IMG/VR virus record: IMGVR_UViG_3300005663_000054
Span: 1-54,336 of that record
Strand: one strand, 5' to 3'
DNA length: 54,336 bases
Origin: a virus
Taxonomy: Duplodnaviria; Caudoviricetes
Below the pieces are notes generated by a model. That model worked only from the letters and a program-made list of their open reading frames with translations. It ran no database searches and was not told the DNA's origin. The stretch's first letter is position 1, and each line of letters opens with the position of its first letter. Below, piece after piece: positions 1,984 to 54,132 of the stretch. A program made the position numbers and the translations under genes.

Positions 1984-3021
1984 TTACTGTCCGCTTTGCT
2001 GAGCCTTGAAGAGGTTGTGAGCTAGTGTCTCACCAATGTGCTCTTCAAATCCGGCCTCAGTGGACGGTATATGGTCAGGCTGCTTTCGCGGGTAGATGTC
2101 TGCTCCGCTTTGGCCACCTGGTGCAGGTCCGAGTCCCATTTGGGGTGTCGAACGGTTCGGGGTACCGAGTGCTTCGAGGTGTTCCTTCACTTCAGGAACG
2201 ATCTCTCTCATTATCCGGGTCCCATCACCAAATTTACCATCAGAAGCGTCAAGTCGCCCTCTGACTTTGTCGTCAATCATACTACGAATGGCCGTCTGGC
2301 CTTTCTTATCGTAGCTACTCATATAATAGGACAGTACATCATCAGAGTCAAGTACATTCTGAATAATTTTATCAACCCTGATCTGCTCAGCATCACCAAT
2401 GACCGTTTGCAGGTCCTCAGAAAGGTCCCCAAAGCCCGTCTGCTTCCCCGTCAACTGCCCCTGTAATTTCTGTACCTGGGCTGACAGAGCTGCGAGCTGC
2501 TGTCCCACATTCCCACTGGCTGGATTTCCACCACCCTGTGGCTGATTATCATACAGGTCATTCTCGTCAAATCCTTCAGAGCCGGGAGAGGGTTCCTCGT
2601 TGCTCTCGTAGACGATACGAGCAGCCTCTTCGATCTCGCTTCCACTGAGGTTCATGGCAGCACCGGCCCTACGGAAGGCACTGATGTCCCCAGTCTCGGC
2701 TAGGAGGTCCATGTCCGCCTTGAAGTTGATGGCAGACTCAGCCTCCTTAGACTTGTCAGAGGCCTCCCGATATCGGTTTTCTGACGATACTCCCATCTGA
2801 GCCCTACGAACTAGCTCCTCGTGAGTGACCTGTTCCTCCTTTCCATCTGTAACCAACGTGGTAAGCTGTTGAGTATACGGATGGGGAGCACTCGCAAGCT
2901 GTGGCGGTACCGCCGAAGCTGGAATGTTCTGTACCGGGTTAGAGTCCTGTGCGTCTTGCGGCATCGGATACGGATTTACGCTTCCTACCGGTGCGTTTCC
3001 TGCTGGATTTGGATTTGGCAT
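1984..3021 (-). CDS. Capsid scaffolding protein
   Basis: Pro/Gln-rich N-terminus, scaffold-like LVTDGKEEQVTHEELVRRAQMG segment, helical and acidic; lies between portal and MCP. Confidence 0.7.
   Translation of the reverse strand: MPNPNPAGNAPVGSVNPYPMPQDAQDSNPVQNIPASAVPPQLASAPHPYTQQLTTLVTDGKEEQVTHEELVRRAQMGVSSENRYREASDKSKEAESAINFKADMDLLAETGDISAFRRAGAAMNLSGSEIEEAARIVYESNEEPSPGSEGFDENDLYDNQPQGGGNPASGNVGQQLAALSAQVQKLQGQLTGKQTGFGDLSEDLQTVIGDAEQIRVDKIIQNVLDSDDVLSYYMSSYDKKGQTAIRSMIDDKVRGRLDASDGKFGDGTRIMREIVPEVKEHLEALGTPNRSTPQMGLGPAPGGQSGADIYPRKQPDHIPSTEAGFEEHIGETLAHNLFKAQQSGQ
2323..2351 (-). promoter_or_regulatory. Possible internal sigma70-type promoter for LAGLIDADG and MCP
   Basis: TTGACT-17-TATTAT with CC before the -10, as in several other family members. 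Confidence 0.35.
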
Positions 3022-3382
3022 TTTCTCGTTCCTTTCGTTTCTTGTCTAAATGTCTCTGGTACTCGAGACTTACCGGTTTGAGGAATTTCACACCCTTTGG
3101 GAATGGACCCATATATGATGTGAATTCCGCCCAAATGTGTTCATCCTTATCACGTCTCTCCTGAGCTAACTCGGATGGAAATTTATGTGGATTTGGAGTG
3201 TGCCATGATCGTTTACACTTATTACAAAACCAGCACAGGTCCCCGGGCAAGGGCTCAAGGAAGAGATCATCCCAACATATATGATCCTCTACGTGGTCTA
3301 CATCACAGACCTCTACTTTCACTTCAACTACTGGCTCTGCCCTACGAAACCAGCTACAAATCGTCCTCCACCACTTTGTCAT
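2939..3382 (-). CDS. Hypothetical protein (Cys/His motifs, basic tail overlapping the scaffold start)
   Basis: 147 aa ORF in operon orientation with AGGAG/AAGG upstream. Confidence 0.55.
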   Translation of the reverse strand: MTKWWRTICSWFRRAEPVVEVKVEVCDVDHVEDHICWDDLFLEPLPGDLCWFCNKCKRSWHTPNPHKFPSELAQERRDKDEHIWAEFTSYMGPFPKGVKFLKPVSLEYQRHLDKKRKERENAKSKSSRKRTGRKRKSVSDAARRTGL

Positions 3383-3394
3383 TTCCTTTCTCCT

Positions 3395-3592: not shown

Positions 3593-3605
3593 CGCTCTTC
3601 TCCTA

Positions 3606-5657: not shown

Positions 5658-5661
5658 ATTT

Positions 5662-6075
5662 CTACCCTCTCACATCCATCGCGTCGCATCCCGGTGGGGG
5701 CCAAACATCTTCCGGTGTCTCTTCCTCTTCCGTCCAGGAGTTCTGATCCGAGAAGTTACTCTCTATCCTAGCCTGGGACCTATGGATAACAGCATCTTGA
5801 GACTGCCCCCGGTTTACCATAGACATCTCAATCAACCGGTCTACCAGCTTACCAGAGTCCACCTGGGAAGCAGCCAATTTATCAAGCCGGGAGAGAACCC
5901 TGTCTTCCGACTCGTTAATATGCCCTTCTAACTGTACCATTTCTTTCATTAGGTGTAGTAGTTGATCCAACTGCTTGCCAAGCTCTAACTGCTTAACGGA
6001 CAGCACTCCCAGTGCTTCCATGTGACCCTTGTTCCAGTCACTCATTTCTTGAAGACGCAGGTCTAGTTTATTCAT
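5662..6075 (-). CDS. Hypothetical coiled-coil protein
   Basis: Start MNKLDLRL at 6075 with AGGAGG RBS; between TerL and portal. Confidence 0.6.
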   Translation of the reverse strand: MNKLDLRLQEMSDWNKGHMEALGVLSVKQLELGKQLDQLLHLMKEMVQLEGHINESEDRVLSRLDKLAASQVDSGKLVDRLIEMSMVNRGQSQDAVIHRSQARIESNFSDQNSWTEEEETPEDVWPPPGCDAMDVRG

Positions 6076-6085: not shown

Positions 6086-7975
6086 CTATCCGTAGTTAAT
6101 CCAATCTGGTTCCGGCTCATAATCCGGCTCGTTAGTCTCTTCCCACCGACGCTGGAACATCTCTTCCAAGACATCATCCGGTATGTCGGCCGCATTGATA
6201 CCACTCATCACACCGATGCCCGACTCATAATGATAGTCCCCCTCCTTCAGCATCTGAATAGGGTTCCTGGCCATGTGGGTATCCGGCCCAGCAGGCATGG
6301 AGTGCCCAAACAGACCCTTAGCATTGACCATAGCCAGAGTATCAATCGCGTCATCAAAACGCAGCAGAGCCAAGTCCTCAGTAAAGTTCTCAATCTGGTA
6401 CCACAGATCGCTGTAAGGCCTCTCCCGGCTTCGATCCAGTGGGAGTTTTAACCTAAACTGTACGAACCTCCAGTGCAGACCCGCAATCTTGTCCGTCTTC
6501 TTGTAGCTCGTAGGAAACTTCACCTCCAGAACTCGTGGAGGTACCTCGCCCTGGCCGTATAAAGCCGGGAGATCATGGGGTAGCCTCTTGGCCAACTCCA
6601 TCTGCACTGGGTATGCTTCTACTGCAACGAGCGGAACTTGCCACTTGATAGCCATAAGATACGCACGTCGGATCACCTCCTCTGTGGGTTTCTTGTCTAG
6701 CCAAAGATCGAGAGACCACAAGGTATCCCGATAGTGTTCAGAGTTCTCTATCGCCATTACGTGGATGCACGAAAAGTCCGAAGTCTCCGAAGTCGTAGGT
6801 GCCCAGTCGATTGTAATGAATCGTCGCATATTAGAGATAGCTTCCCCAAAAGGACGGACGATGGGTCGGGGGAGAGGCACAGGTTCGTCCAGCGTACTTT
6901 CCCAACCGGCCAATTGGTGCGAGACCATCTTGGCTTGGGAATTGAGGGGATCATTAGCGTAAGTACCATCTTTATCCTCTATCCAGTAGGTGTTGAGTTC
7001 CGGATGGATACGTAGGATACGCTCTGCCTCCGTTACCGGATTATTCTCGTACTGAGCTGCATAAGCGGCAGGACCCATACGACGCTTCTGGACTACTTGC
7101 CACTCCTGTCCCATCTTCTCAGGCCACTCGTCTACCGTCTTACCATCCTTATCTTGATATGTTACAGCGTGGAATATCTTCTTCCAATCATCAATTCGTG
7201 AGTCTTCGGTAGAGTGGAGCCAATAAATGAAAGTACGCCGGGAGAGGAGGGTTCCTATGATTCGTATCTTAACATCAAAGTTATCCGCCATCGGATATAT
7301 GACATTGAAGAAGAAGGACTGGAACCCCTTGATATTCTCAGAGGGTACCAGTATGAGGCTATCATCCTTCTCCACGTCATCGAAGTATATCTCATGGGGA
7401 CGCTTACCAAGAGCAGCTCCCATTATAGGCATACCCGTAATCATAGCCCCATTCCGGAGCTTTATCTGAGAGTGGTTCCAGATTCCACCTTGAGACTTAC
7501 TAGGCTTCAACTTTCCAAAGTCATCTATGATTAGTGAGTTGTCATCTATTTGTGACATGAAGTCATCGAAGGTGGTAGTGATAAAGTCCTGCTTAGCCAG
7601 GAACATCACCGACTCCCAGTGTGGTCGTGCTACCACCTTACGCAATATGTTTTCCTTCACCAAGGTGGACTTAGCCGCTGACCTCGGAGCCGCCGTCACT
7701 GAGAGCTGCGAGTTTTCCCAATGGTAGAGCCATCGGTAGTGCATATCTGGAGAACGGTGAGTTCCATGCTTGTAGAAGGGACCACGTCCAGACGTAGCCG
7801 TCGGAAAGAGGTAGTGCTCTCGGAAGAATGCCCATGAGGCTACTTCCAAGTCCGGCCGCCCCTCTAGACGCACCGCATTCACCCTAGCCAGCTTCATACC
7901 TCCACTGTCCAACGTAGGATAATCCGCCGGTAGAGGCCAGTAGGGGTTATTTCGTTTTGAAAAGGCTACGGCCAT
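6086..7975 (-). CDS. terL: Terminase large subunit
   Basis: Walker A APRSAAKST, Walker B IYFDDVE, coupling motif IIGT, AQYENNP, RNase H-like FITIDWA..SDFS, C-terminal DDAIDTLA. Start MAVAFSK at 7975 (TAATG overlap). Confidence 0.93.
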   Translation of the reverse strand: MAVAFSKRNNPYWPLPADYPTLDSGGMKLARVNAVRLEGRPDLEVASWAFFREHYLFPTATSGRGPFYKHGTHRSPDMHYRWLYHWENSQLSVTAAPRSAAKSTLVKENILRKVVARPHWESVMFLAKQDFITTTFDDFMSQIDDNSLIIDDFGKLKPSKSQGGIWNHSQIKLRNGAMITGMPIMGAALGKRPHEIYFDDVEKDDSLILVPSENIKGFQSFFFNVIYPMADNFDVKIRIIGTLLSRRTFIYWLHSTEDSRIDDWKKIFHAVTYQDKDGKTVDEWPEKMGQEWQVVQKRRMGPAAYAAQYENNPVTEAERILRIHPELNTYWIEDKDGTYANDPLNSQAKMVSHQLAGWESTLDEPVPLPRPIVRPFGEAISNMRRFITIDWAPTTSETSDFSCIHVMAIENSEHYRDTLWSLDLWLDKKPTEEVIRRAYLMAIKWQVPLVAVEAYPVQMELAKRLPHDLPALYGQGEVPPRVLEVKFPTSYKKTDKIAGLHWRFVQFRLKLPLDRSRERPYSDLWYQIENFTEDLALLRFDDAIDTLAMVNAKGLFGHSMPAGPDTHMARNPIQMLKEGDYHYESGIGVMSGINAADIPDDVLEEMFQRRWEETNEPDYEPEPDWINYG

Positions 7976-8133
7976 TATGTATTGGGTTGCGTACCAAAGT
8001 CTGCACACTCATTACATAAATGCAATACGCCAAACTTTATTTGCACAGAATCATTCTCACATCCTGTAATACACCACTCACATCCACCACATTCACAGAC
8101 GGGCTGCTCTTTTGTATTTTCTTCCGTGTCCAT
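7975..8133 (-). CDS. Small Cys-rich protein (52 aa)
   Basis: Read by hand: MDTEENTKEQPVCECGGCEWCITGC...LCNECADFGTQPNT; abuts both neighbours. Confidence 0.55.
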   Translation of the reverse strand: MDTEENTKEQPVCECGGCEWCITGCENDSVQIKFGVLHLCNECADFGTQPNT

Positions 8134-8379: not shown

Positions 8380-9587
8380 CAGACTTCTATAAGAGCAAGT
8401 GAGAGAAACCCAGCAGTCGCTACAATAAAGGCCCCCATTACATGGGCCGCCACTAAGTGACCATTCTGGAACTTGACAACCTTCCCGCATAAACTAGCAA
8501 TGAAGATCGGGTCCGTAATCATCGCTTGGAATCTCTCGTTGAACGGGTCCTGGAACTCCTTCGGCCAGGTATTGTAGCTTAGGTTCTTGTTGCAGGAACC
8601 GGCTATGAACTGTCTCCAGAACTTGTGGGGGTCCTTAGACTTCAGCCAGTCGGTCACCTGGTCCGTAAGAATCTGCTGACGCCCCAACCGCTTCTGATCT
8701 GCCGCGTCCTCCTGTGGCTCCTCCTCCTCTACAAGAACAGATACGTCCAAGCCGGGAGAGCTTTCTTCTGTGAGCCGGAACCGATCGAAGTTCTCCACTA
8801 CCGGGCCGGGCGTACCTACGGGGCCATAAGACATATTAGGGGTTGGGCAAGTCTTGCGTTCGGTGTAGACTATCTTCCCTTTGACCTCGATGGCATCATA
8901 GTACTTTTCCGGTATCTCGTTTAGGTCAGGTACGGTTCGATCCCTCTCAAGCTGTTCCATACTAGTCGGAATCAGGGGTTTCGTCTCCTGGGAAACCGGA
9001 GGCGGCGTCACTGGGGGAGAGGAATCGGGCACGGATTCTTGGGTCGGAAGTCCCTGTGTCGGAGGTCCCGTCGGGGGGTCTAGGAGTGCCAACTGTTGGA
9101 CATTCCTCTCCGCTGATATGGGGTTCTGGCCCAGAAGTAGAGGCTCTGCGACGGGCTTCACCGGGGGTGTAAGGAGTTGTCCTACGTTGCCCCGTGCGAA
9201 GGGTTCCATGGTTGGTTTCTGTTGACTCTGGATGAACTGAGACATCACTAATGCCAGTTGGCTGACATTGTCGCTGATCTGTGACACCTTCTGCTCCAGA
9301 CCCACTACTCTCCCGGCTTCCTCCAGATTTGATGGTAGTCCCTTGGCTTCGTTCATTCTCTGCTCCTCCAATTGTTGTTTGGTCATCATCTTGGCCTTTC
9401 CCCGGTGTATTGACTGGGTCGGGCCGTTCTGTGCCATGTACTGCATCCCGAGGGCGAGTCCATGGTTCACTTCTTCCACTCCCTGCTCCTCCACCATTGA
9501 GTCCACATGTCCCATTCTGTGAGAGGATATGTCCCCCGCTGTTGGGGCGTTCTGGATTCGAAACATCTGCTCTTGTTCTGGAGTCAC
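8379..9587 (-). CDS. Hypothetical protein, Pro-rich centre and hydrophobic C-terminus
   Basis: 402 aa, GGAGG RBS before GTG; C-terminal VMGAFIVATAGFLSLALI may be a membrane anchor. Confidence 0.65.
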   Translation of the reverse strand: MTPEQEQMFRIQNAPTAGDISSHRMGHVDSMVEEQGVEEVNHGLALGMQYMAQNGPTQSIHRGKAKMMTKQQLEEQRMNEAKGLPSNLEEAGRVVGLEQKVSQISDNVSQLALVMSQFIQSQQKPTMEPFARGNVGQLLTPPVKPVAEPLLLGQNPISAERNVQQLALLDPPTGPPTQGLPTQESVPDSSPPVTPPPVSQETKPLIPTSMEQLERDRTVPDLNEIPEKYYDAIEVKGKIVYTERKTCPTPNMSYGPVGTPGPVVENFDRFRLTEESSPGLDVSVLVEEEEPQEDAADQKRLGRQQILTDQVTDWLKSKDPHKFWRQFIAGSCNKNLSYNTWPKEFQDPFNERFQAMITDPIFIASLCGKVVKFQNGHLVAAHVMGAFIVATAGFLSLALIEV

Positions 9588-10029: not shown

Positions 10030-10187
10030 CCCCCTCCAATACCGAGACGTTTTTTACTTCTGAACGTATTGGCTAGGTTCTTGATGTCGTCCTTTGAGAG
10101 GTCAAGCAAAGGAGCGAAGACATAACTCTCTGGACTAGAAGCACGCACTAGTGCATGGTAGAAAGTAACTGCCTCATTGTTAACCAT
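9990..10187 (-). CDS. Hypothetical protein
   Basis: 65 aa, GGAG RBS, downstream of the promoter at 10247-10275. Confidence 0.55.
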   Translation of the reverse strand: MVNNEAVTFYHALVRASSPESYVFAPLLDLSKDDIKNLANTFRSKKRLGIGGGWKVKKSWLIRQS

Positions 10188-10620
10188 TTAGTATTCTCCC
10201 AGACCACGTACTATGTTCCTTGCGGGTCCTCTTCCTACGCTTTCCAATTATAGACTCGTCTCCGGACGAAGTCAAGGTCTTGGTCATCAGTAAGACCCGA
10301 TTTTTTAGGGCCTCCTTTGTCAGTGTCCCATATAGGACGCCGCTCAACTCTTGGTGGACTCGGAGCAGATCAGGGTTATCCTTGATCTTCTTGGGCATCC
10401 CAAGACCGAACAGTGCGGATTCAAACGCATACGTGAGTACATATCGGGACTCGGCCATGCCTGGGAAGTGGACTAGAGGAATCTCTAGGAGGCCCAGGAG
10501 GGACCGTATGCCCTTCTCTGTGGCCCCCATCAGGTTTGCAAGCACATCGAGACGGGTGTAATGAGCACCGGCCCCGAGCTTCATGTAGGGGGGAGGCGGC
10601 CTATCCGGCTGCACTTGCAT
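10180..10620 (-). CDS. Hypothetical, possibly HTH DNA-binding protein
   Basis: LDVLANLMGATEKGIRSLL resembles an HTH; basic C-terminus. Confidence 0.5.
   Translation of the reverse strand: MQVQPDRPPPPYMKLGAGAHYTRLDVLANLMGATEKGIRSLLGLLEIPLVHFPGMAESRYVLTYAFESALFGLGMPKKIKDNPDLLRVHQELSGVLYGTLTKEALKNRVLLMTKTLTSSGDESIIGKRRKRTRKEHSTWSGRILNG
10247..10275 (-). promoter_or_regulatory. Sigma70-type promoter for packaging/head genes
   Basis: TTGACT-17-TATAAT. Confidence 0.75.
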
Positions 10621-10984: not shown

Positions 10985-10986
10985 TT

Positions 10987-13861: not shown

Positions 13862-13875
13862 TTTGCTCTCCCGGC

Positions 13876-23189: not shown

Positions 23190-23214
23190 CGCCCTTTCCT
23201 TTCAAAAGCCGGGA

Positions 23215-25715: not shown

Positions 25716-25727
25716 CTTCGTTGCTCC

Positions 25728-42203: not shown

Positions 42204-43400
42204 TTACGTGCCACGCATTTGACCGAGCAACCGATCCAACATCTCCGACATCTCTTCATCAGATGGGCCTTGCTGGCCCACATTCATACCAAATCCAGCC
42301 TCACTATTAGTAAGTGCCTTGTTAGGTGAACCCCCCAACGCCTTAATAATCTGTTGCATTAGCTCAGGCTCGGAACCTAACGCGGCACGCCTCGCCTTCA
42401 GGTCCGCTCTCCTATCTAGCATGTCATACATAAGTTCATGGGATACCGACGCCGTACCCCCACGCCTACTAGCTTCTAATGCGGCTCGTGCTCTCTTGGA
42501 CTTACCATACAGAGCGTCATACGCCTCGTGGGCTAGAAGGCCCCCGCCCGCCACAACTCCCAGCCCGCCCAAACCACGGGCCAGCTTAGCACCACGTCCC
42601 AAACCTTTGGCCCCGGCCTTGGTTAGCTTCCCCAGAGTTCCCTCCTCGGCCACAGTCAACCCCTTGGTTGCACTCACCGCAGACTCTTTAACACTAAGTG
42701 CCGCCGCCTTGCCCTTACCAACTACCCCCTTGGCATCACCCATCCTCTCAGAGAGTTTGTTGCGGGCCATACCCTCCAGCTCGTCTATCTGAGCACGTAC
42801 ACCCTTGTCAAGATTTTGTGTTGGTCCCCCAGCAAGAAGTTTACTTAGTCCAGGATCACCCTTAGTAGCCCACCTCAGCAGCCGACGAGCCCCCGATTCC
42901 TTCGTCGCTATGTCATACACCCGAGCCACACTCGTGGGTCCTGCCTTGAAGAGACCTTCTGGACCCATCCTCTTCATCGCATCTTGCATAGAAGCCGGGA
43001 GAGATTGTGCGGCCCTCAAAGTAGTCCTATACGCACTCTTTATCTCCTCGGGGGTAGCCCCACCAGGTTTAATTTTTCGCAGACTCTTCAAGAGATTCGT
43101 GAAGTGTGCCTGCTTCCTCGATCCGCCCGCTGCCTTTAGGATGGCCTTGGGAATTCGATTAGGGGACATACTAAGTACCTTCTCCCCCATCTCTCCCTCC
43201 AGCATACGCAATAGAGACTTAGAGGCACCACCCTGCTTCAACAAAATACGTAATGTCTCTGCCCTCTCCGCAGCCGTAGCTCCCACTCTCCACTGCTGTG
43301 ACATGCGGTGCATGATTTCAATGGGAGATAGTTCGGCGACGGCACCTGCTTCGGCACCCAACTCTGCCACTCCCCCTATCAGTTTCAAGTCTGGCGGCAT
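42204..43400 (-). CDS. Internal virion protein (Gly/Ala-rich)
   Basis: Gly-rich amphipathic segment; position in the ejection module. Confidence 0.55.
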   Translation of the reverse strand: MPPDLKLIGGVAELGAEAGAVAELSPIEIMHRMSQQWRVGATAAERAETLRILLKQGGASKSLLRMLEGEMGEKVLSMSPNRIPKAILKAAGGSRKQAHFTNLLKSLRKIKPGGATPEEIKSAYRTTLRAAQSLPASMQDAMKRMGPEGLFKAGPTSVARVYDIATKESGARRLLRWATKGDPGLSKLLAGGPTQNLDKGVRAQIDELEGMARNKLSERMGDAKGVVGKGKAAALSVKESAVSATKGLTVAEEGTLGKLTKAGAKGLGRGAKLARGLGGLGVVAGGGLLAHEAYDALYGKSKRARAALEASRRGGTASVSHELMYDMLDRRADLKARRAALGSEPELMQQIIKALGGSPNKALTNSEAGFGMNVGQQGPSDEEMSEMLDRLLGQMRGT

Positions 43401-47185: not shown

Positions 47186-47198
47186 GTCTCTCCCGGCT

Positions 47199-50027
47199 TT
47201 AAGATTGTCGGCTCTGGGCCTCAGATGGTCCCAGTATACCATGTATCAATACAGCCTGTAGCTCAAAGTCTAAATTCCCACCAAGAAATCTCAAGCTGGG
47301 GTACACACGTACATCATGGGCAATCACTTTCGCTACACATTGGTCAGGAATGATATTGATCCCCGTCTCCACTTCCAACAATCGTTGGCGGTTTCTCCAC
47401 ACACCAAACCGAATGAATGCGTTGGTATCGGTTGTATCGGTCTCACCTCCCAGGTCCGAGAACGCTGCCGACATTGACACGACAATCTTCCGTGAGAACG
47501 GATCAATGACACCTCTCGTATCTCCATTACCCTCCGCGTCAAGCTGCTGGAATACCAACTCGGTCACTACGGGAGCTACGGAGTATCTGGTAGCCGTAGT
47601 TGTAGCTTCAGATAGCCCAGACACAGTCACAACAGTCGCACTATTACGTGTCGTTATCTCTACCGAATCTCCTTCCATGTTCCCATTCTGTATATAGACC
47701 TGGTGTCCAACACAGTTGACCGGAAACGTAGCGGCTGTATCAATGATCTGGGTAGCTGACGCAGTCGTACACGTGCCATTAACTGTTTCAGATGCTCCTG
47801 TTCCGCACATGGACCTTTTGCCCATCTCACGGGCACCATCTATAGCATGAACTGTTCCATCCGTAAGAATGAAGTAGGCCCTCTGAGCACCATTAGTCAG
47901 TACATCATTTCCACCAGCCAGAAACGCCCACGGACAATCAACCAACCTCGTTACAGCCCCGGTTGCCTCCCAAAGAAGGAAGCACTCCTTCTTAGTAGTG
48001 TTGAGAAAAACCAGTAATCCCATAGTTGCATCGTACTGAAGATGCACTGTGCCAAGAGACTGTGCCCATTCACTATCGTCCATAATTATACGGTCCATGG
48101 CCGAGATAGACTTTATGGCCCCCGTATTTCCATCCACTGATTTAACACCAGATGGAGTAACTATAAATAACACATTGCCAACGCCAGTCGCCCCGTATCG
48201 TGAAACTCCTCCAAGCCGGGAGAGGATTCGGTTCATGGCCACAGTTGATCCGGAACGAGTAACTTTGTAGACGGACGCATTGGAAATTGCAAAGCAGTGA
48301 TCCCCCGCCACCTCAAGGGATAGAAACTTCTCTCCTGGATCATCAGGAGGGTATCTATTCTCGGGTGGAAAGTTCTCGGGTTCTAGCTTGCCAGTGTGTG
48401 AGAAGAACAGCTCCTCCGTTCTCCTATCAGCGTCGTCCCAGTCATCCTCAAGAGTACTAGGCTCAGCGATGTCTGTCACTCCGATCAGTAGTCCAGCGTA
48501 GTTGGATAGTAGTTTTGCCCGGGGCATAACACCAAAGGATTCATCAAGGGCATCAAATGGAGTCTGAGTAATCAGCCCGTCGTCGGTGTAGTAGGTTGTA
48601 TCTGGACCATTCTGGGAACTAAGGGAGCCCACAGGAGCGTGGTCGAACTTCAACTGGAGGAGAGCACTAGTTGGAGCATAGGTCTCTTTAGGGATATACT
48701 CATCTAGAAGGTAGAGGGGATTAACGAGAGTGTATTTATCTTCTCCAAGGTCACTGGCAGACCCATCCCCCTGGGACCTCCAGAACCGGAATCCGTCACA
48801 GTGTGGAATACCCCAATGCAGAATACACGTAGCGTCGATATTGTCTCCCCGGAGCTGGTTAGTTTGTCCAGATGACCCTTCCGTTGTGGGTATCTTGATC
48901 TCGTCAACAAAGAACCTAAACGCCGAGTTCGTTGTTCCAAGAGCAAACTTTGAGCGGTACCTAATGTAGGATCGTAGGTTATGCTTACGGCTTACCAGTT
49001 CAACAGCCCCGGTGTATACCCCTTTTGGCATAAACCACCCGTCGTGCCCTCCGTGTACCTGTAGGTCCATACTATCAGAGGATTCTGCTATGGTAGCAAC
49101 GGCGTGTATGGACCAAATAACATTAGTTGCTTCATACGGAGAAGTGCCCTCCATGACAACAGTATCGGCTTCATCATTAGCTGACACAACGTCTCTCTGG
49201 AAGGTAAATGTAGTATTTGCTCCTCCAATAGTACCCGAGCCACTAAACTTGATTATGTCCCCGGCTATTACAGCACTTAAATTGGGGGTGTCCCCACTAA
49301 CATCAAATGTAGCTGAAGATTCAGTCAGGGCTCCCAAGGTTCCGGAGGCCCGACTTGGGAAAGGGTCCTCATTGATTGGTGTCAAGAGAAACCGAGTGGG
49401 CATGAGACCCATAAAGCGTCCCTCGAATCCGGTACTGTTTCGATCAAAAGCATCCCAGTCGTTGATCTTCCAATCGTAGAAATAGGCCTTGTTGTATGGT
49501 GGTTCCTTCGTATTGTAGTCTGTGAGGGGCGTTGAGCTAGTTGTACCCGAACACACAAAGTAGATGTACTTACCGTTGGAGGTAATATCATACTCGGCTA
49601 GGGAGTCCAGAGTAAAGTCTGTCCAACTCTTGAAGTCCTCTAACATAACTACATCATTTGATCCATCCTCCGAGTCTCGATACGCGAAATAGATAGCCGA
49701 CCCAGTAGCGGCCTGGTTGTCTGCAATGTAGGCAATGCCCTTGAGGGTGTATCTAGTGGCCCCCTTCTGGATAGCAACGTATTTAGCATAGACAATGTTG
49801 CTGATGCTGGTAATAGTCTGACCGGCTTCTGGCTTAGGTACCCCGTGTACAGTTGAATCGGCCATACCAGGGAAGGGACGAATGGCCCCGAGGAATCTTC
49901 CATCAACTCCAGTGGACTCTACAAGCTGGGGATGTAGCACTCCGATCTGGTTCTGCTTATAATCAGCACCAGGATACTGCATCCGGTAAGTCCAGAAAGC
50001 ATTTTCATTGCCTTGTCTTTCAGGCAT
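47199..50027 (-). CDS. Tail nozzle / stabilization protein (P22 gp10 / T7 gp12-like)
   Basis: ~940 aa, beta-rich; LFFS....PENFP, G.VS....VGN.LF....GV propeller-like motifs; follows the adaptor. Confidence 0.65.
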   Translation of the reverse strand: MPERQGNENAFWTYRMQYPGADYKQNQIGVLHPQLVESTGVDGRFLGAIRPFPGMADSTVHGVPKPEAGQTITSISNIVYAKYVAIQKGATRYTLKGIAYIADNQAATGSAIYFAYRDSEDGSNDVVMLEDFKSWTDFTLDSLAEYDITSNGKYIYFVCSGTTSSTPLTDYNTKEPPYNKAYFYDWKINDWDAFDRNSTGFEGRFMGLMPTRFLLTPINEDPFPSRASGTLGALTESSATFDVSGDTPNLSAVIAGDIIKFSGSGTIGGANTTFTFQRDVVSANDEADTVVMEGTSPYEATNVIWSIHAVATIAESSDSMDLQVHGGHDGWFMPKGVYTGAVELVSRKHNLRSYIRYRSKFALGTTNSAFRFFVDEIKIPTTEGSSGQTNQLRGDNIDATCILHWGIPHCDGFRFWRSQGDGSASDLGEDKYTLVNPLYLLDEYIPKETYAPTSALLQLKFDHAPVGSLSSQNGPDTTYYTDDGLITQTPFDALDESFGVMPRAKLLSNYAGLLIGVTDIAEPSTLEDDWDDADRRTEELFFSHTGKLEPENFPPENRYPPDDPGEKFLSLEVAGDHCFAISNASVYKVTRSGSTVAMNRILSRLGGVSRYGATGVGNVLFIVTPSGVKSVDGNTGAIKSISAMDRIIMDDSEWAQSLGTVHLQYDATMGLLVFLNTTKKECFLLWEATGAVTRLVDCPWAFLAGGNDVLTNGAQRAYFILTDGTVHAIDGAREMGKRSMCGTGASETVNGTCTTASATQIIDTAATFPVNCVGHQVYIQNGNMEGDSVEITTRNSATVVTVSGLSEATTTATRYSVAPVVTELVFQQLDAEGNGDTRGVIDPFSRKIVVSMSAAFSDLGGETDTTDTNAFIRFGVWRNRQRLLEVETGINIIPDQCVAKVIAHDVRVYPSLRFLGGNLDFELQAVLIHGILGPSEAQSRQS

Positions 50028-50244: not shown

Positions 50245-52367
50245 TACACCAACCACCCGTAGTAGTCCCCCCGGGTATCGTTATCACTTGTGTCACCGAT
50301 CATGTGCCCACCAAACCGGGAACTCTTCTTGGTAATCATCTGACGCAAGGCCCTAATCTTCACCAGGTACCTACGCTCGATAGCCTGCATTCTCTTAGTC
50401 TTATTCTCATTGCCAAGAACATCCATGGCTGCCTGCATACAGGCACAGTGCTTGATGATGTTGCTGAAGGACGGGAGTACCTCGTATACGATAGTGCCGG
50501 TTGGAGTCGGGTCCCAGTCAGTAGTAAGAGTCGCTACCCGCGTGGTATTAACATATGAGTTGATAGTCCGTTCTTGAACATACCCACCGGTATCGGACAG
50601 GAGACGGCAGAGATACCCAGCATAGGCATTGGCCCGAGTATCCAATGTCCCATCTGTAACCGAGGATGGGAACGTGATGGTTCCAGCAGCAGCGGAGTCG
50701 GCCGTTGCCTTGTGCATGAAGCTTTCACCATTAGGTACATACAGAATCTCTAGCGTATCAGTGCTTCTCCAGTCGGTAAGAAGACGGAACTCGTTACCTT
50801 CAATCACGAATCCCGACTGGTGGGACGACCAATGGTTATCAGACCACACTTCATAGATCGGAATGACGGGAGCCGTAGCACTCATCTTCCTCACGGCCCA
50901 GACTTCCCCCACGTTCGGTGGTAGGATGTACGATTGTGTTCCTGACACCAAGTCTACATCAAATCGACAGATGATGTTGTGGTCCGTATTATTGTGGATT
51001 TCTGACATGATGACAGTCATTGCAGAAGTTAGCTGCTCCACCATATCGGAATCAGTATACTTTGGAACTATCCCGGGCTCGTCTGTCATTCTACGTATGA
51101 GTGTAACACAGTCAGACAGAAACCCGCTGCCTGATAGAGCGGAAGCACTGACCACAGATGGAGCAACAAGGGTATCAATTGCATCACGAATTTCCTTTAA
51201 GCTATCAGTTCCAGTAGCAAATCCCGCCCCCTCAATCAAGGCCACTCTCTCCCCTATGTACTCTAGACTATCCGTTGCTGGGTCATACGTTCCAGCGTTG
51301 GCAGGAGCCGTGGCCCCCTTGGACATGATGGCACGAAGATAAGCCTCTAGAGTATCCGGAGCGGCTGACCCAAACCCAGTGGTCAGCTTGGATAGGGACG
51401 CCAAGGCACCGGCGTCGGCTACGTAGACTTCCACAAGATCGTTGGCCTGGGGAGTGAAGCCCAGAGCCGAGTCCAGAGTGAAGGATGGGTCCGAGTCATC
51501 GTAATCCGTTACCACCCGAATGTTTACCCTGGCAGTACTCTTGTCTGTACCCCTCCAAACGGCAAGCAGAGTATCATTGTAATCGTCATCGGCTCCACCG
51601 GTAGGTGGATCGCCCGACTGTACAAAGACCTTAGTAGTTGTAGAAGACCCAGTGCTAGTTCCACTAAAGAATAGCAGTCGAGCCGTGGTCGCTGCCTCTA
51701 GAGACATCGTACCATCATCATAATCGCTGGTGTTACCGTCATTGGTCAACAGGTATGCCAGAACCGTATTGTCTGCCACCTCTGCTGTAAGGTCAGTTGC
51801 AGATGCCGTAGCCGTCTTCATCAGGTGGTCCAGGTTGAGGTCGGACAAAGCCGTGTCAGCCTCAAAGTTCACGTCCAACTTCTGCTGGGCCGTCAAAGCG
51901 ATGTTGTCACTGCTCTGGATATTCACATCGGGGGCACTTGCACTCAGAGTCACGGCGGTTCCTAGCCACGTGCCTACATCTACACGACCACTACCGTCTA
52001 TCGCGTCACTGACCACGTTATCCACCAAGGTGATTTCTTCAACCGCCGGAGCAAACCCTGTTTGAGTAACCACTAAGATAACACTCTCAACTCCTGTGGC
52101 AAAGGCAGCATCGGGCCAATCAACGCGATATAAGCCGGGAGAGGACGTGGAGTCGATCTCGATCATAATAGCCCCAGAGGCCCTCCAAGCACTATTAGTA
52201 GCAGCCAAGGCAGTAGCGTCCTCTTTGGCAGCAGGAGTCGCTCCCTGCCTTGTATACTGTAGGTCAAAGCTGGTAATGGTGGCACCGGTCTCAGGAGACC
52301 CATCGGTAGAGTCCACAACCATGATGTATCGGATAACGCTCGTAGTGTCTTTCTTGATCTCGGGCAT
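50244..52367 (-). CDS. Fibre-like N-terminus fused to a head-tail adaptor-like C-terminus
   Basis: From ~aa 418, LSDCVTLIRRMTDEP..YTDSD..LTSA..LVSGTQSYILP is adaptor-like; N-terminal ~410 aa are Thr/Ala/Asp-rich. Confidence 0.55.
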   Translation of the reverse strand: MPEIKKDTTSVIRYIMVVDSTDGSPETGATITSFDLQYTRQGATPAAKEDATALAATNSAWRASGAIMIEIDSTSSPGLYRVDWPDAAFATGVESVILVVTQTGFAPAVEEITLVDNVVSDAIDGSGRVDVGTWLGTAVTLSASAPDVNIQSSDNIALTAQQKLDVNFEADTALSDLNLDHLMKTATASATDLTAEVADNTVLAYLLTNDGNTSDYDDGTMSLEAATTARLLFFSGTSTGSSTTTKVFVQSGDPPTGGADDDYNDTLLAVWRGTDKSTARVNIRVVTDYDDSDPSFTLDSALGFTPQANDLVEVYVADAGALASLSKLTTGFGSAAPDTLEAYLRAIMSKGATAPANAGTYDPATDSLEYIGERVALIEGAGFATGTDSLKEIRDAIDTLVAPSVVSASALSGSGFLSDCVTLIRRMTDEPGIVPKYTDSDMVEQLTSAMTVIMSEIHNNTDHNIICRFDVDLVSGTQSYILPPNVGEVWAVRKMSATAPVIPIYEVWSDNHWSSHQSGFVIEGNEFRLLTDWRSTDTLEILYVPNGESFMHKATADSAAAGTITFPSSVTDGTLDTRANAYAGYLCRLLSDTGGYVQERTINSYVNTTRVATLTTDWDPTPTGTIVYEVLPSFSNIIKHCACMQAAMDVLGNENKTKRMQAIERRYLVKIRALRQMITKKSSRFGGHMIGDTSDNDTRGDYYGWLV

Positions 52368-53689
52368 TATTGCTTATTTCCCCTCTTATTCGCCATCAAG
52401 AGACCACCACCACCGGCACCCGCACCAACCTGAAGTGCCCCTATGTCAGCAGCCTGGGTACTACCCTCCGTTTCGTAGGCATCAAACCCCGCCGCACGGG
52501 CCGGACTACTAGCCCCTAAAGTGTAATCTTCACTTCCCTCGTCAGTAAATTGTGGGGCTGTGGTCACCTCTCCCGGCTCAGTACGATAACCAGTGTTTCC
52601 GTAGTCCGTAGTGTTAGCATTTAAGAGGTTGTTACGACCGATGAAACGGTGGTTGCCGTTGTTATGTCCATCTATCCCCGTGAGACAGTCATAGATGATA
52701 TTATTTATAGCGGCAAAGGGTCCCCAAGAGGCACTCGGGAACTGGATGCCCACTGTGGTGTTCTCCTCAACCCCATCAATGGTACAACCGTACACTACAC
52801 ATGGAAATCCATTAGATCCTATGAACTCGACTGCTCTAACACCAATGTTGATAAAGACACAATTTACTACCAGACCCCAGGTTATTTCAATTGCGTCGGC
52901 TATGCAATCCTCGAAAGTACAACCGAAGAACATACAACTTGTCCCCGCATCGCAGCCACCGACAACATCAAAAAATATGCATGATTCACACACCATCCCA
53001 TTACCGGACGAAGAGATCCCATCCACCGCCGCCCCGGTGAACTCACAGTTTCTCCAGTGCATAGCATTCAGAGAGATGTTGACATTGTCCCCCGTACCAT
53101 CAGTAAACTTGAGGTTCTCGAACGTGTAGTAGCCCCCTACAGAACCCAGGGAATCCGCCACACAGTTGGTACGGGTGTCGGCTGCTGCAATTGTTGCTTG
53201 CCCGTCGTCGTCAAGAGTGGTAGTGTACCCGACAAAGCGGATAGCAGAAGTGGTTGTACCCGGCGTGTCAATCGTAAGAGTTTCTGAATAGGTCTTATCG
53301 CTGCGGAGGTAAACGGTGTCACCGGCTACAACTGCGTTCATGGCCGCGTCGCCCGTAAGCAGTGCCCCCGTAGAGGAAGTAATATCCCCAGTGGCAAGGT
53401 CGCCCGCCGCGAAGTCCGACGCATTACCCACATCAAGGAGGGTAGAAGTCTCCACGAGCACTATGTTATTGGCTGTAGAGGACGCAACCTCATACAGACC
53501 TACAGTCACCCCAGTACCAGCGTCTACGTAGATGACATCCCCCGCCGAGAAGGTATATCCGTGTCCTGCCGCCTCTGAAATGGTGAAGGTAGATTCTGTC
53601 CAAATGACAGTTCCCGCCAGAGTAACCCCAATGTTATCAAGGCCGTCGTTTGCGTCGTTACCACCAGCGTCTACGAATCGGATAGCCAC
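52367..53689 (-). CDS. Right-handed beta-helix (pectin lyase-like) tailspike
   Basis: VD..GNDANDG; AGDTVY; repeated xNCxF turns; P.F....DY.L...SPA...G....DIGA. Confidence 0.75.
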   Translation of the reverse strand: MAIRFVDAGGNDANDGLDNIGVTLAGTVIWTESTFTISEAAGHGYTFSAGDVIYVDAGTGVTVGLYEVASSTANNIVLVETSTLLDVGNASDFAAGDLATGDITSSTGALLTGDAAMNAVVAGDTVYLRSDKTYSETLTIDTPGTTTSAIRFVGYTTTLDDDGQATIAAADTRTNCVADSLGSVGGYYTFENLKFTDGTGDNVNISLNAMHWRNCEFTGAAVDGISSSGNGMVCESCIFFDVVGGCDAGTSCMFFGCTFEDCIADAIEITWGLVVNCVFINIGVRAVEFIGSNGFPCVVYGCTIDGVEENTTVGIQFPSASWGPFAAINNIIYDCLTGIDGHNNGNHRFIGRNNLLNANTTDYGNTGYRTEPGEVTTAPQFTDEGSEDYTLGASSPARAAGFDAYETEGSTQAADIGALQVGAGAGGGGLLMANKRGNKQ

Positions 53690-54132
53690 TAACCAACCCT
53701 CCGAGGAGTGCCAATCTTACCCCCACTGATGGGAGTACTGTAAGCGTAGGGAATTGGTAGCTTGTCCTTGGTCTTCTTCTTCAACCAGTCCCACCTCTCC
53801 TGATCCTCCGCAATGTTCTCATTCTGCTTGCGGATGGTGTCTCTGTTCTTGGACAGGATACGCTTCTTCTTCTGCTTGAAGTCCACTGAGCCATACCCAG
53901 AAACAATCATGTTGACGAAGCCGGGAGAGACTGCCTCAAAGTTGGGACCAAGATCCTCGATCTCCTCAACGATGCGACGACCTTTGTGAACCCACAGAGC
54001 CAATATCCACTGACCCGTCTCGGCGTGCCAGAACGTCAATACATCCGGCTCACCCAGTTTACGACGAAAGAATTTAGCTGTACCCGTATCCTTAACGAGG
54101 TGGATACGAGAATTCAGGACTGTTACTGACAT
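53689..54132 (-). CDS. Hypothetical protein after the MCP
   Basis: 147 aa, GGAGG-like RBS. Confidence 0.6.
   Translation of the reverse strand: MSVTVLNSRIHLVKDTGTAKFFRRKLGEPDVLTFWHAETGQWILALWVHKGRRIVEEIEDLGPNFEAVSPGFVNMIVSGYGSVDFKQKKKRILSKNRDTIRKQNENIAEDQERWDWLKKKTKDKLPIPYAYSTPISGGKIGTPRRVG

What the first reader, a model, noticed from the sequence alone, without database searches (positions are those of the whole stretch)
2580..53929. Genome-wide asymmetric 11-mer AGCCGGGAGAG, hundreds-fold over-represented
Seen: I count 23 exact copies by eye (10 plus, 13 minus) and about a dozen 1-mismatch copies (e.g. 6563, 7236, 12824, 18258, 22630, 23207, 28884, 31799, 37934, 38533, 41255). Uniform-composition expectation is ~0.03 exact copies. 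Most lie inside CDSs in different frames (LSRL, SRE, SPG, LPA), so codon or peptide bias does not explain them. Orientation is unrelated to transcription (8 vs 9 in minus-strand regions), unlike Chi sites or mycobacteriophage stoperators. Inference: a DNA-level signal, such as a site for a phage or host DNA-binding protein, a self-mark against a defence nuclease, a modification target, or a host uptake/HIP1-like motif that could identify the host.
Basis: seen in the sequence. Interest (0 to 1): 0.82.

Follow-up and report, generated by a model that had tools for sequence, protein, structure and literature searches.

The report
Evolving 12-letter self-mark in phages
An uncultured marine-sediment phage keeps dozens of copies of one 11-12-base DNA word on both strands, and each related phage carries its own variant of the word, often at the same places, so a still unidentified reader, most simply a phage protein, probably recognises the phage's own DNA.

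Summary
AGCCGGGAGAG occurs 23 times exactly (10 plus, 13 minus) and 15 times with one mismatch. Dinucleotide shuffles give 0.04 copies, synonymous-codon shuffles 3.0, and a 5th-order Markov model 0.9.

The window is a complete 54-kb phage from marine-sediment metagenomes. The main new result is that the word is lineage-specific. Eleven related phage records or contigs carry their own dialects:
- AACCGGGAGAG
- ATCGGGAGAGAG
- ACGGGAACGAGT
- GCGGGAGCGAGT
- AATGGGAATGAGT
- TTGTGGGTGAGATT
- GCAGAGACAGG

Cross-occurrence between dialects is almost nil.

17 of 32 mappable sites coincide with a site in the closest relative. At shared sites the G has switched to A in concert.

Sites lie on both strands, ignore gene direction, and are spaced more evenly on each strand than chance predicts. 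No prokaryotic genome or unrelated phage that I searched is enriched for the word.

Best reading: a co-evolving signal that works in one direction per strand and is read by a phage protein. The best candidate is a winged-helix protein encoded next to the terminase genes. Its function (packaging mark, nick site, or protection) is not settled.

Earlier follow-ups of this scan reported similar dialect words in other, unrelated phages.

The parts
2580..2590 (+). exact site; conserved in G001, G002, G003
5885..5895 (+). exact site; conserved in G001
6420..6430 (-). exact site inside TerL; G001 keeps AGCC here
6563..6573 (+). one-mismatch site
7236..7246 (+). one-mismatch site (exact 10-mer core); conserved in G001-G003
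8750..8760 (+). exact site; conserved in G001-G003
9308..9318 (-). exact site; G001 keeps AGCC here
12824..12834 (-). one-mismatch site
13089..13099 (-). one-mismatch site
13866..13876 (-). exact site, intergenic; G001 has AACC at the same place
14721..14731 (+). exact site
17050..17060 (-). one-mismatch site
18258..18268 (+). one-mismatch site (exact 10-mer core)
18603..18613 (-). exact site
22630..22640 (-). one-mismatch site (exact 10-mer core)
23207..23217 (+). one-mismatch site
24374..24384 (-). exact site; conserved in G003
24595..24605 (-). exact site; conserved in G001
27481..27491 (-). exact site; G001 has AACC at the same place
27962..27972 (+). one-mismatch site
28552..28562 (+). 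one-mismatch site
28884..28894 (+). one-mismatch site (exact 10-mer core); conserved in G001
29562..29572 (-). exact site in the polymerase gene
29742..29752 (+). exact site in the polymerase gene; conserved in G001, G003
31799..31809 (+). one-mismatch site (exact 10-mer core); conserved in G001
33406..33416 (+). exact site
34061..34071 (-). exact site; conserved in G001
34197..34207 (-). exact site; conserved in G001-G003
37724..37734 (-). exact site; conserved in G001
37934..37944 (+). one-mismatch site (exact 10-mer core)
38533..38543 (+). one-mismatch site
41255..41265 (-). one-mismatch site
42993..43003 (+). exact site
47188..47198 (-). exact site, intergenic; conserved in G001
48214..48224 (+). 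exact site; conserved in G001-G003
52133..52143 (+). exact site; conserved in G002
52568..52578 (-). exact site
53919..53929 (+). exact site; conserved in G001
10180..10620 (-). candidate reader 1: 146-aa winged-helix protein (Xis/Nu1-like fold by weak structural matches), encoded upstream of TerL; present in every relative whose contig covers this region
38380..38949 (+). candidate reader 2: 189-aa tandem winged-helix protein at the end of the replication module; no orthologue detected in G014-G016
6086..8008 (-). large terminase, used to find relatives

Best explanation
The word is the recognition site of a sequence-specific reader whose specificity co-evolves with about 10-56 sites (up to one mismatch) spread over the phage's own genome. 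I read it as a phage-encoded self-mark.

Shown:
- The word is selected at the DNA level.
- Every related phage has its own variant.
- Sites persist at homologous positions between close relatives while one letter switches in concert.
- Sites turn over completely between distant relatives, but their number and spread are kept.
- Sites sit on both strands regardless of gene direction.
- Sites are spaced more evenly on each strand than chance predicts.

Inferred:
- The per-strand spacing suggests the signal works in one direction, so each orientation has to cover the genome. A machine that travels along or processes DNA would behave this way (packaging, nicking, or end-protection).
- The most likely reader is the 146-aa winged-helix protein at 10180-10620. 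It is encoded with the terminase genes in every relative and its recognition helix is variable. It would bind the asymmetric 12-bp site as a monomer and guide terminase or a nuclease to phage DNA rather than host or rival DNA.

My odds: phage-encoded reader about 0.6; this particular protein about 0.3; packaging or terminase-linked function about 0.25.
For: Selection on DNA: 23 copies against 2.97 in synonymous shuffles and 0.86 under a 5th-order Markov model. All six frames are used. Amino-acid identity to orthologues without a site is 0.350 at motif codons against 0.474 expected, over 75 site-by-target pairs.

Dialects: G001 ACCGGGAGAG x31; G002 x15; G003 TCGGGAGAGA x18; G004 and G013 GTGGGTGAGA x10 and x12; G006 GCAGAGACAG x38; G014 CGGGAACGAG x20; L053 x5 in 20 kb; L054 CGGGAGCGAG x6 in 18 kb; G015 ATGGGAATGA x7; G016 AGAGGAGTAG x6. 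Cross-counts are 0-3.

Positional conservation of G000 sites: 17 of 32 mappable sites coincide with G001, 6 of 23 with G002, 7 of 24 with G003 (random mean 0.08-0.09), 0 of 9 with G004 and 0 of 21 with G006. At 18 sites in aligned DNA the motif is 0.889 identical against 0.743 in the flanks, while letter 2 is identical in only 0.22.

Strands: 93 plus of 169 sites. Summed over the seven genomes, 52 sites lie on the gene's strand, 75 on the opposite strand and 24 at gene edges or between genes. Per-strand spacing is more even than random in 7 of 7 genomes, Fisher p = 0.00035.

Reader: the 146-aa protein has an orthologue in G001, G003-G006, G014, G016, L053, L054, L335, L339, L050 and L051, always upstream of TerL where the contig shows both. 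Its model has a winged helix whose best structural matches include BldC, an excisionase and entries titled as phage packaging proteins, at Z 4.8-5.3. Its recognition helix is more variable than the protein average (entropy 1.38 against 1.10, 55 sequences).

No host or unrelated-phage enrichment was found.
Against: No experiment or read-level data links any protein to the word.
- Dialects follow phage phylogeny, so every core gene co-varies with them equally. The choice of reader rests on domain type, core status and helix variability only.
- L053 and G014 share nearly the same dialect but differ at 4 positions of the helix.
- Structural matches for the 146-aa protein are weak: Foldseek gave none at E <= 0.001 and the best VIA Z was 5.3, a range the tool says can reflect a common arrangement. 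Pfam and PHROGs give no family.
- It is two genes away from TerL, not adjacent, and known small terminases use one pac or cos region, not dozens of sites.
- The spacing statistic counts G000-G003 as separate although they share sites. G006 and G014 alone are not significant (p 0.17 and 0.28).
- The host is unknown, so a host-encoded reader is not excluded.
- A second DNA-binding candidate (tandem winged helix) exists. An unrelated single winged-helix gene sits at its place in G014 and G015.
Confidence: 0.4

Rival explanations
1. The sites are localized single-strand nicks made by a phage nickase, as in T5, phiKMV-like and tf/LUZ24-like phages, but here on both strands. The nicks could prime strand-displacement or recombination-dependent replication, since no primase domain was recognised among the proteins I scanned. 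This overlaps with the best explanation if terminase or another core nuclease is guided by the winged-helix protein.
For: The evolutionary pattern is the same as that described for phage tf and its relatives. There, a 9-bp consensus sits at similar genome positions in four phages, with a one-base difference between tf (TACTGTGAC) and LUZ24/PaP3/MR299-2 (TACTATGAC), and the authors propose co-evolution of nickase and sites (passages of PMC3517423). Even spacing on each strand suits strand-specific events. Several nuclease-type genes are core: PD-(D/E)XK, a metallophosphoesterase and TerL. No primase domain was found in the proteins scanned.
Against: In T5, phiKMV-like and tf-like phages all sites lie on one strand. 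Here the split is 10 plus and 13 minus, and about 50/50 in all relatives. No nick can be seen, because only contigs are held for the runs. The HNH-like ORF 10601-10984 is patchy among relatives, so it is not the universal enzyme.
Confidence: 0.2
2. The word is read by a host machine. It could be a Chi-like signal that stops a host helicase-nuclease, or a mark that spares the DNA from a host defence system. In that case the dialects track different hosts.
For: The density is like that of Chi-rich lambdoid phages: LLS has 23 Chi sites, one per 1.86 kb (passages of PMC12315714). Here there are 23-29 sites in 54 kb. Direction-dependent function would explain the even spacing on each strand. Both orientations would be needed if DNA ends can arise anywhere, as in a circularly permuted genome. 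Relatives differ in G+C content (0.50-0.59), so they may have different hosts.
Against: Known Chi sites, as I recall them, are 5-8 nt, while this word has 11-13 informative positions. Chi-rich phages show a strong orientation bias (20 of 23) and terminal clustering, and they lack a Rec module. Here there is no such bias, and PD-(D/E)XK, AAA_24 and an SSB-like gene are present. A one-letter switch between phages with 88% identical TerL would require matching host changes. No enrichment was found in the genomes searched: 5 hold 6-30 copies of the 11-mer, and 401 genomes of one phylum hold at most 90 copies of the 10-mer per 2.9 Mb, close to the reversed-word control. The 14-mer gave only single hits in 120 genome stretches and 118 viral stretches.
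Confidence: 0.17
3. The sites bind a phage transcription or chromosome-organising protein that acts regardless of orientation, for example the tandem winged-helix protein at 38380-38949. This would be a stoperator-like global silencer or a compaction/anchoring factor.
For: The tandem winged-helix model is confident (pLDDT 88.6). It resembles monomeric tandem winged-helix DNA readers such as TFIIIC tauB, Pol III C34 and ScpB (Foldseek E from 2.7e-4). Such a protein could read an asymmetric 11-12-bp site. Stoperator motifs and repressors also diverge together among related phages (passages of PMC6550527). Site counts are highest in genomes with this gene (29-38 exact 10-mers in the complete genomes G000, G001, G006), lower in G014 and G015, which carry an unrelated single winged-helix gene there (20 and 7), and low in G016, which has none (6).
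Against: Its two recognition helices are almost invariant in 40 homologues (entropy 0.14 and 0.38 against 1.13 for the whole protein), although the dialects differ. No orthologue is detectable in G014-G016, which still have word arrays. Stoperators face one way relative to transcription, unlike here. By recall they also lie mostly between genes. Even spacing on each strand is not expected for an orientation-blind binder. No integrase or repressor module was seen in the proteins scanned.
Confidence: 0.13
4. The sites are start signals for lagging-strand priming, that is, recognition sites of a primase or helicase loader.
For: Per-strand spacing of about 3.6-4 kb and evenness. The D5-like SF3 helicase carries a C-terminal RFX-type winged helix (Pfam E = 5.5e-11). 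A Cys-rich 122-aa protein is encoded just upstream of it.
Against: No orthologue of the helicase is detectable in G014, G015 or G016, nor in the 6 kb upstream of TerL in L053, yet these carry word arrays. No primase catalytic domain was found. By recall, known primases read 3-5 nt.
Confidence: 0.05
5. The word is a compositional, codon-usage or assembly artefact.
For: None found.
Against: (null models). (independent assemblies from 2 studies). (conserved homologous sites in other records).
Confidence: 0.01

Closest known systems
Stoperators of Cluster A mycobacteriophages (L5 gp71, Bxb1 gp69 repressor sites)
   Same: Both are asymmetric sites of about 13 bp, present in tens of copies over the whole phage genome. 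In both, the motif differs between related phages together with its reader, and sites occur at syntenic positions (passages of PMC6550527; abstract of PMC9283540).
   Different: Stoperators predominantly face one way relative to transcription, and the phages are temperate. Here 21 of 23 sites lie inside ORFs, orientation ignores gene direction, and no integrase or repressor module was seen.
Localized nick sites of Pseudomonas phage tf and LUZ24-like phages (also T5 and phiKMV-like phages)
   Same: A short consensus is repeated 9-14 times at similar positions in related phages. There is a one-base difference between relatives, and the authors propose co-evolution of enzyme and sites (passages of PMC3517423).
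   Different: All those sites lie on one DNA strand, whereas here they are on both strands in equal numbers. Those consensuses are 7-9 bp (longer and gapped in phiKMV-like phages) against 11-13 bp here. No nick has been shown here.
Chi-rich lambdoid phages (LLS, MD8)
   Same: A similar density of one asymmetric word, about one per 1.9 kb, accumulated by selection in a phage genome (passages of PMC12315714; abstract of PMC3784561).
   Different: Chi is the host's 8-mer, is strongly oriented (20 of 23; 32 of 32) and clusters near one end, and those phages lack a Rec module. Here the word is 11-13 bp, lineage-specific, unbiased in orientation and spread evenly, and a Rec-type module is present.
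DNA uptake sequences and their dialects (Neisseriaceae DUS, Pasteurellaceae USS); recalled, no call
   Same: A 10-12-bp asymmetric word in both orientations, inside genes, with lineage-specific one- or two-letter dialects.
   Different: Those are chromosomal words of competent bacteria read by a pilus protein. Here the array is in phage genomes and was not found enriched in any cellular genome searched.
Dialect words reported by earlier follow-ups of this scan in other phages (e1-1044339, e1-3298160, e1-6062594)
   Same: Asymmetric words in both orientations and all frames, with variants in relatives and an unknown reader. One case is also evenly spaced on each strand.
   Different: Different phage groups and different words. 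Those notes are unchecked AI notes. The positional conservation with a concerted one-letter switch and the list of candidate readers are specific to this report.

Membership tests
Stoperator/repressor system (Cluster A mycobacteriophages) | Asymmetric site of about 13 bp in tens of dispersed copies | tested here: met
   23 exact plus 15 one-mismatch copies; 11-13 informative positions
Stoperator/repressor system (Cluster A mycobacteriophages) | Motif differs among related phages; sites at syntenic positions | tested here: met
Stoperator/repressor system (Cluster A mycobacteriophages) | One predominant orientation relative to transcription | tested here: not met
   8 same strand, 13 opposite in G000; 52 same, 75 opposite summed over the 7 genomes
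Stoperator/repressor system (Cluster A mycobacteriophages) | Read by the immunity repressor of a temperate phage | tested here: inconclusive
   No integrase, partition or repressor family was found among the 50 ORFs scanned against Pfam; the small ORFs were not all scanned
Localized nick sites (T5, phiKMV-like, tf/LUZ24-like) | Short consensus at similar positions in relatives, with variant letters | tested here: met
   compared
Localized nick sites (T5, phiKMV-like, tf/LUZ24-like) | All sites on one DNA strand | tested here: not met
   10 plus, 13 minus; 93 plus of 169 over 7 genomes
Localized nick sites (T5, phiKMV-like, tf/LUZ24-like) | Physical single-strand interruption in virion DNA | not testable with these tools
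   Only contigs are held for the 4 runs; no read starts available
Chi sites | Word over-represented in the host chromosome and read by host RecBCD/AddAB | tested here: inconclusive
   Host unknown.
Chi sites | Strong orientation bias and end clustering in Chi-rich phages; no phage Rec module | tested here: not met
   No orientation bias; spread evenly; PD-(D/E)XK and AAA_24 present
Host genome words (DUS/USS, HIP1) | Hyper-abundant in the cellular genome and shared by unrelated elements of that host | tested here: inconclusive
   Not found in those searched. Of the 80 viral stretches fetched from 118 hits, 2 hold two copies of the 11-mer and none holds more
Small terminase (TerS) with pac/cos recognition | Gene next to TerL, conserved in synteny | tested here: met
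   The 146-aa gene lies upstream of TerL, with one core gene (402 aa) and small non-core ORFs between, wherever the contig covers the region
Small terminase (TerS) with pac/cos recognition | N-terminal winged-helix DNA-binding domain of the Nu1/Xis type plus a helical oligomerisation part | tested here: inconclusive
   Model pLDDT 75; best matches Z 4.8-5.3 (entries titled as phage packaging proteins, BldC, Xis); no Foldseek hit at E <= 0.001; no Pfam or PHROG family
Small terminase (TerS) with pac/cos recognition | One recognition region per genome | tested here: not met
   23-56 dispersed sites per complete genome
Small terminase (TerS) with pac/cos recognition | Binds the large terminase | not testable with these tools
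   see Tried and rejected

The most novel reading that the evidence does not exclude
These phages carry a fast-evolving genomic password. A 12-bp word is written every few kb on each strand and read by a terminase-linked winged-helix protein. The phage's DNA-processing or packaging machinery would then accept only its own chromosome and reject host DNA and the DNA of co-infecting relatives. A one-letter change in reader and sites would isolate a lineage, acting as a speciation mechanism for phages. Similar dialect words noted in unrelated phages by this scan suggest a widespread, undescribed class of phage self-recognition systems.
Probability: 0.2. Interest if true: 0.9.

Novelty: new variant of a known kind. 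Interest (0 to 1): 0.72.

Why it matters
Dispersed recognition words with a co-evolving reader have been described for only a few phage groups: stoperators and nick sites. The purpose of the nick sites is still unknown (introduction of PMC3517423).

This uncultured family offers an unusually clean natural experiment. There are at least eight dialects of one word, about half of the mappable sites are kept in place between the closest pair, and one letter has been rewritten at more than a dozen sites.

That makes the question of who reads such words, and why, directly testable with two small proteins and a handful of oligonucleotides.

If the word is a self-mark for packaging or processing, it would bear on three things:
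- how phages avoid packaging foreign DNA;
- how related phages become genetically isolated;
- how to recognise fragments of one phage lineage in metagenomes.

Tried and rejected
Host identification
- A scan of genome contigs with the TerL alignment found no relative.
Of the 80 loci fetched, one held 2 copies of the 11-mer.
- Five whole genomes behind these hits hold 6-30 copies.
- A local group of 4 copies on contig G318:C32 has no protein similarity to the phage and no enrichment.
- I searched only one phylum sample, 401 genomes. I did not search other phyla.

Isolated relatives
- The best TerL match among deposited phages is 23.5% identical over 35% of the protein. The polymerase is about 24% identical.

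Reads
- All 4 runs are kept as contigs, so nicks, termini and modifications could not be examined. No RNA holder is listed.

- Viral scans with the tandem winged-helix alignment and with the 146-aa alignment returned only members of the same phage family. No mosaic cases were available.
The long contigs behind P0015, P0045, P0004 and others could therefore not be fetched, and the 48 and 39 homologues could not be paired with dialects.
- The complex prediction of TerL with the 146-aa protein gave no verdict, score 0.00.
- The ESM Atlas search of the 156-aa core protein gave nothing usable.

Other candidates rejected
- The 402-aa neighbour is a proline-rich protein with a hydrophobic C-terminus, not an enzyme or DNA binder by sequence.
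- The lead from earlier notes was a SprT-like reader. The 99-aa HExxH protein at 24054-24353 is a core gene but has no Pfam match even at E = 5, so the lead is not supported.
- The single winged-helix gene of G014 has no profile similarity to the tandem winged-helix family (probability 0.09).
- ORF 8134-8490 is conserved only in G001, so it is not a core small terminase.

Supplementary files of the papers were closed. Table S and figure S data on stoperator orientation and on Chi counts were not seen.

Full report
OBSERVATION

The window is one complete IMG/VR phage record of 54,336 bp, classed as linear, with a CheckV completeness of 100%.

In 100 dinucleotide-preserving shuffles the mean was 0.04 and the largest count 1. 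The same word read backwards occurs 0 times.

There are 15 further copies with one mismatch.

Word counts define the core: GCCGGGAG x40, GCCGGGAGA x34, GCCGGGAGAG x29. An A is preferred in front: AAGCCGGGAGAG x16.

With a crude ORF map of 80 ORFs covering 96% of the window, 21 of 23 exact copies lie inside ORFs, in all six combinations of frame and orientation. Eight are on the gene's strand and 13 on the opposite strand. Two are intergenic.

The enrichment survives every null model I ran. Against the 23 copies observed:
- 200 within-gene synonymous-codon shuffles give 2.97 copies (max 5);
- Markov order 3 gives 0.06 (max 1);
- Markov order 5, trained on the window itself, gives 0.86 (max 4).

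Contigs assembled separately from 4 runs in 2 studies, labelled marine sediment metagenome, hold the stretch, and some match it without a difference. The word is therefore real and is selected at the DNA level.

WHAT THE GENOME IS

The family searches recognise these genes:
- a large terminase, 6086-8008;
- a D5-like SF3 helicase with a C-terminal RFX-type winged helix, 10987-12339;
- a family-A polymerase fused to a UDG-like domain, 28782-31514;
- a metallophosphoesterase;
- a MazZ-like domain, a PD-(D/E)XK nuclease, an AAA_24 ATPase and GroES;
- an SPFH protein.

Most other proteins match no family. No deposited phage is close: TerL is at best 23.5% identical over 35% of its length.

THE KEY RESULT: DIALECTS

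I found relatives through TerL, through the most conserved structural protein (3-1466) and through the 146-aa protein, in viral and metagenome collections.

The exact 11-mer is nearly absent from them: 2 copies in G001 and 0 in G002-G005. Yet each relative has its own hyper-abundant word of the same kind:

| Record | Word and count |
|---|---|
| G001 (TerL 88% identical) | ACCGGGAGAG x31, usually AAACCGGGAGAGT |
| G002 | ACCGGGAGAG x15 |
| G003 | TCGGGAGAGA x18 (AATCGGGAGAGAGT) |
| G004, G013, L050, L051 | TTGTGGGTGAGATT (x10, x12, x3, x6) |
| G005, G006 | GCAGAGACAGG (the 10-mer x38 in G006) |
| G014 | ACGGGAACGAGT (the 10-mer x20) |
| L053 | ATCGGGAACGAGT |
| L054 | GCGGGAGCGAGT |
| G015 | AATGGGAATGAGT (x7) |
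| L335 | GTAGGAATGAGTC (x3 in 9 kb) |
| G016 | GTAGAGGAGTAGAGT (x6) |

Cross-counts are 0-3. For example G000 has 29 GCCGGGAGAG and 0 ACCGGGAGAG, while G001 has 3 and 31.

By eye, the dialects share a frame: two or three variable letters, then GGGA, then 0-2 letters, then GAG, often followed by T.

Two short records, G007 and G017, gave no clear word.

SITES ARE KEPT IN PLACE WHILE THE WORD CHANGES

G000 and G001 are collinear and about 75% identical in DNA.

I mapped the 42 G000 sites that match the 10-mer with up to one mismatch. Coincidences with a site of the relative's own dialect, in the same orientation and within 4 nt, were:
- G001: 17 of 32 mappable sites;
- G002: 6 of 23;
- G003: 7 of 24;
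- G004: 0 of 9;
- G006: 0 of 21.

The random mean was 0.08-0.09 for the first three.

At the 18 exact sites in aligned DNA, motif letters are 0.889 identical against 0.743 in the flanks. Letter 2 is identical in only 0.22. The G has become A, or the reverse, at site after site. Two G001 sites keep AGCC; both lie in coding sequence.

Over short distances, then, the sites are conserved and rewritten in concert. Over long distances they turn over completely, while the array itself is maintained.

Motif codons fall where proteins are less conserved: identity to orthologues without a site is 0.350 against 0.474 expected, over 75 site-by-target pairs.

GEOMETRY

In every genome the two strands carry similar numbers, 93 plus of 169 in total.

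There is no link to gene direction beyond a mild excess on the non-coding strand. Summed over the seven genomes, 52 sites are on the gene's strand, 75 on the opposite strand, and 24 at gene edges or between genes. Sites shared by relatives are counted more than once.

The largest gap between sites is 4.5-5.1 kb in six genomes. It is larger in G013 and G014.

On each strand taken alone, spacing is more even than random in 7 of 7 genomes (Fisher p = 0.00035). G000-G003 share sites, so they are not independent. G006 and G014 alone are not significant.

IS IT A HOST WORD?

I could not identify the host.
- A TerL scan of one genome per species found nothing.
- A 14-mer built on the word gave only single, taxonomically scattered hits in 120 genome stretches and 118 viral stretches.
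- Of the 80 loci fetched from each scan, one genome locus and two viral loci hold two copies of the 11-mer. None holds more.
- Five whole genomes hold 6-30 copies in 2.8-8.2 Mb.
- In 401 genomes of one phylum the 10-mer reaches at most 90 copies in 2.9 Mb, similar to the reversed control word. The phage has 29 in 54 kb.

This is a small sample, so a host reader is not excluded. The one-letter switch between close relatives is more simply explained by a reader encoded in the same genome as the sites.

WHO READS IT?

Dialects follow phylogeny, so co-variation cannot single out one gene. I therefore asked which DNA-binding proteins are present wherever an array is present.

SF3 helicase with winged helix. 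No orthologue is detectable in G014-G016. Of these, G014 and G016 are near-complete, and G014 has a strong array. The helicase is also absent from the 6 kb upstream of TerL in L053.

Tandem winged-helix protein (38380-38949).
- It too has no detectable orthologue in G014-G016.
- Its model is confident (pLDDT 88.6) and resembles TFIIIC tauB, Pol III C34 and ScpB.
- Its two recognition helices are almost invariant in 40 homologues (entropy 0.14 and 0.38 against 1.13 for the whole protein), which fits poorly with changing dialects.
- G014 and G015 carry an unrelated single winged-helix gene at the same position, so displacement by a non-homologous gene cannot be excluded.

146-aa protein (10180-10620).
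- It is present in all relatives that cover the region, always upstream of TerL. One core gene (402 aa) and small non-core ORFs lie between them.
- Its model (pLDDT 75) shows a winged helix followed by long helices and a basic tail.
- The best structural matches are weak, Z 4.8-5.3. They are two entries whose titles concern phage DNA packaging, plus BldC, a mycobacteriophage Xis and a plasmid centromere binder.
- By recall, such domains bind asymmetric sites as monomers.
- Its recognition helix is more variable than the rest of the protein (entropy 1.38 against 1.10).

I therefore rank the 146-aa protein first, at about 0.3. This is an inference from domain type, core status and variability, not a demonstrated link.

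HOW IT MOST LIKELY WORKS

The data call for three things: a reader with about 20 bits of specificity; sites needed in both orientations; and each orientation spread over the whole genome.

This fits a signal met by machinery that moves along or processes DNA in one direction. The candidates are:
- terminase guided to phage DNA, for packaging starts or cuts;
- a nickase;
- protection of DNA ends.

My committed reading is a phage-encoded self-mark read by the terminase-linked winged-helix protein, with confidence 0.4 for the general statement.

The nick-site reading (0.2) is the closest documented parallel. Phage tf and its relatives show the same positional conservation with a one-base switch, but all their sites are on one strand.

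A host Chi-like or defence-related reading (0.17) fits the density and the directionality. It does not fit the length of the word, the lack of orientation bias, or the presence of a recombination module.

An orientation-blind regulator of the stoperator kind (0.13) fails on orientation. By recall it also fails on site placement, and the per-strand spacing does not suit it.

NOVELTY

I ran three paper searches, on nick sites, stoperators and Chi in phages. None of them was aimed at dispersed both-strand words, so I cannot say that such arrays are not in print.

The array fails a defining feature of each known class: orientation for stoperators, one strand for nick sites, and host origin and orientation bias for Chi.

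Earlier follow-ups of this scan reported comparable dialect words in other, unrelated phages. The phenomenon may therefore be general. Those notes are unchecked.

Noticed in passing
window 1469-1972 (-): A 167-aa ORF with a weak LAGLIDADG match (E = 0.0017, below the Pfam cut-off) sits between the conserved structural gene 3-1466 and gene 1984-3021. No relative has an orthologue. It is probably an inserted homing-endonuclease gene.
   Followed up: partly
window 10601-10984 (-): A 127-aa Cys/His-rich ORF that looks like an HNH nuclease by eye (Pfam HNH only E = 2.5). Homologues occur only in G002 and G006, at other genome positions, so it may be mobile.
   Followed up: partly
window 28782-31514 (+): The family-A DNA polymerase carries an N-terminal UDG-superfamily domain (Pfam E = 1.1e-14).
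   Followed up: no
window 31552-34372 (+): A MazZ-like dATP/dGTP diphosphohydrolase N-terminal domain (E = 7.5e-19) and DUF4406 lie in the replication module. This may point to non-standard nucleotide metabolism. None of the proteins I scanned gave an adenylosuccinate-synthetase (PurZ-type) Pfam match.
   Followed up: no
window 33373-33903 (+): A 176-aa core protein with motifs that look like an ERCC4/XPF-type nuclease by eye (recalled signature). It has no Pfam match even at E = 5.
   Followed up: partly
window 8379-9587 (-): A 402-aa core protein between the winged-helix gene and TerL. It has conserved N- and C-terminal parts, a long proline-rich variable linker and a hydrophobic C-terminal segment. 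It evolves fast: 48% identical in G001 where TerL is 88%.
   Followed up: partly
window 25008-27417 (-): A mosaic block. Three of its four genes (25008-26285 and 26833-27417) are 85-87% identical to G002 but only 34-41% to G001, which is otherwise the closest relative. The gene between them (26285-26854) shows the opposite pattern, 51% against 69%. This suggests exchange of a cassette, perhaps tail or host-range genes.
   Followed up: no
I saw only a weak Prok-JAB match (E = 0.0013). These genes are core in the family.
   Followed up: no
G001 (L016-L018), record ends: The record's direct terminal repeat falls inside the polymerase gene when aligned to the window. It is probably the overlap of a circular or permuted assembly, not a physical genome end.
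   Followed up: partly
L206:2850-3116 (G014) and G015 18949-19407: A single winged-helix gene, unrelated in sequence, occupies the position that the tandem winged-helix gene has in the window's clade. G016 has none there.
   Followed up: partly
window 38010-38390 (+) and 28226-28795 (+): The phage encodes GroES (Cpn10, E = 7.1e-18) and an SPFH/Band 7 protein (E = 7.3e-11).
   Followed up: no
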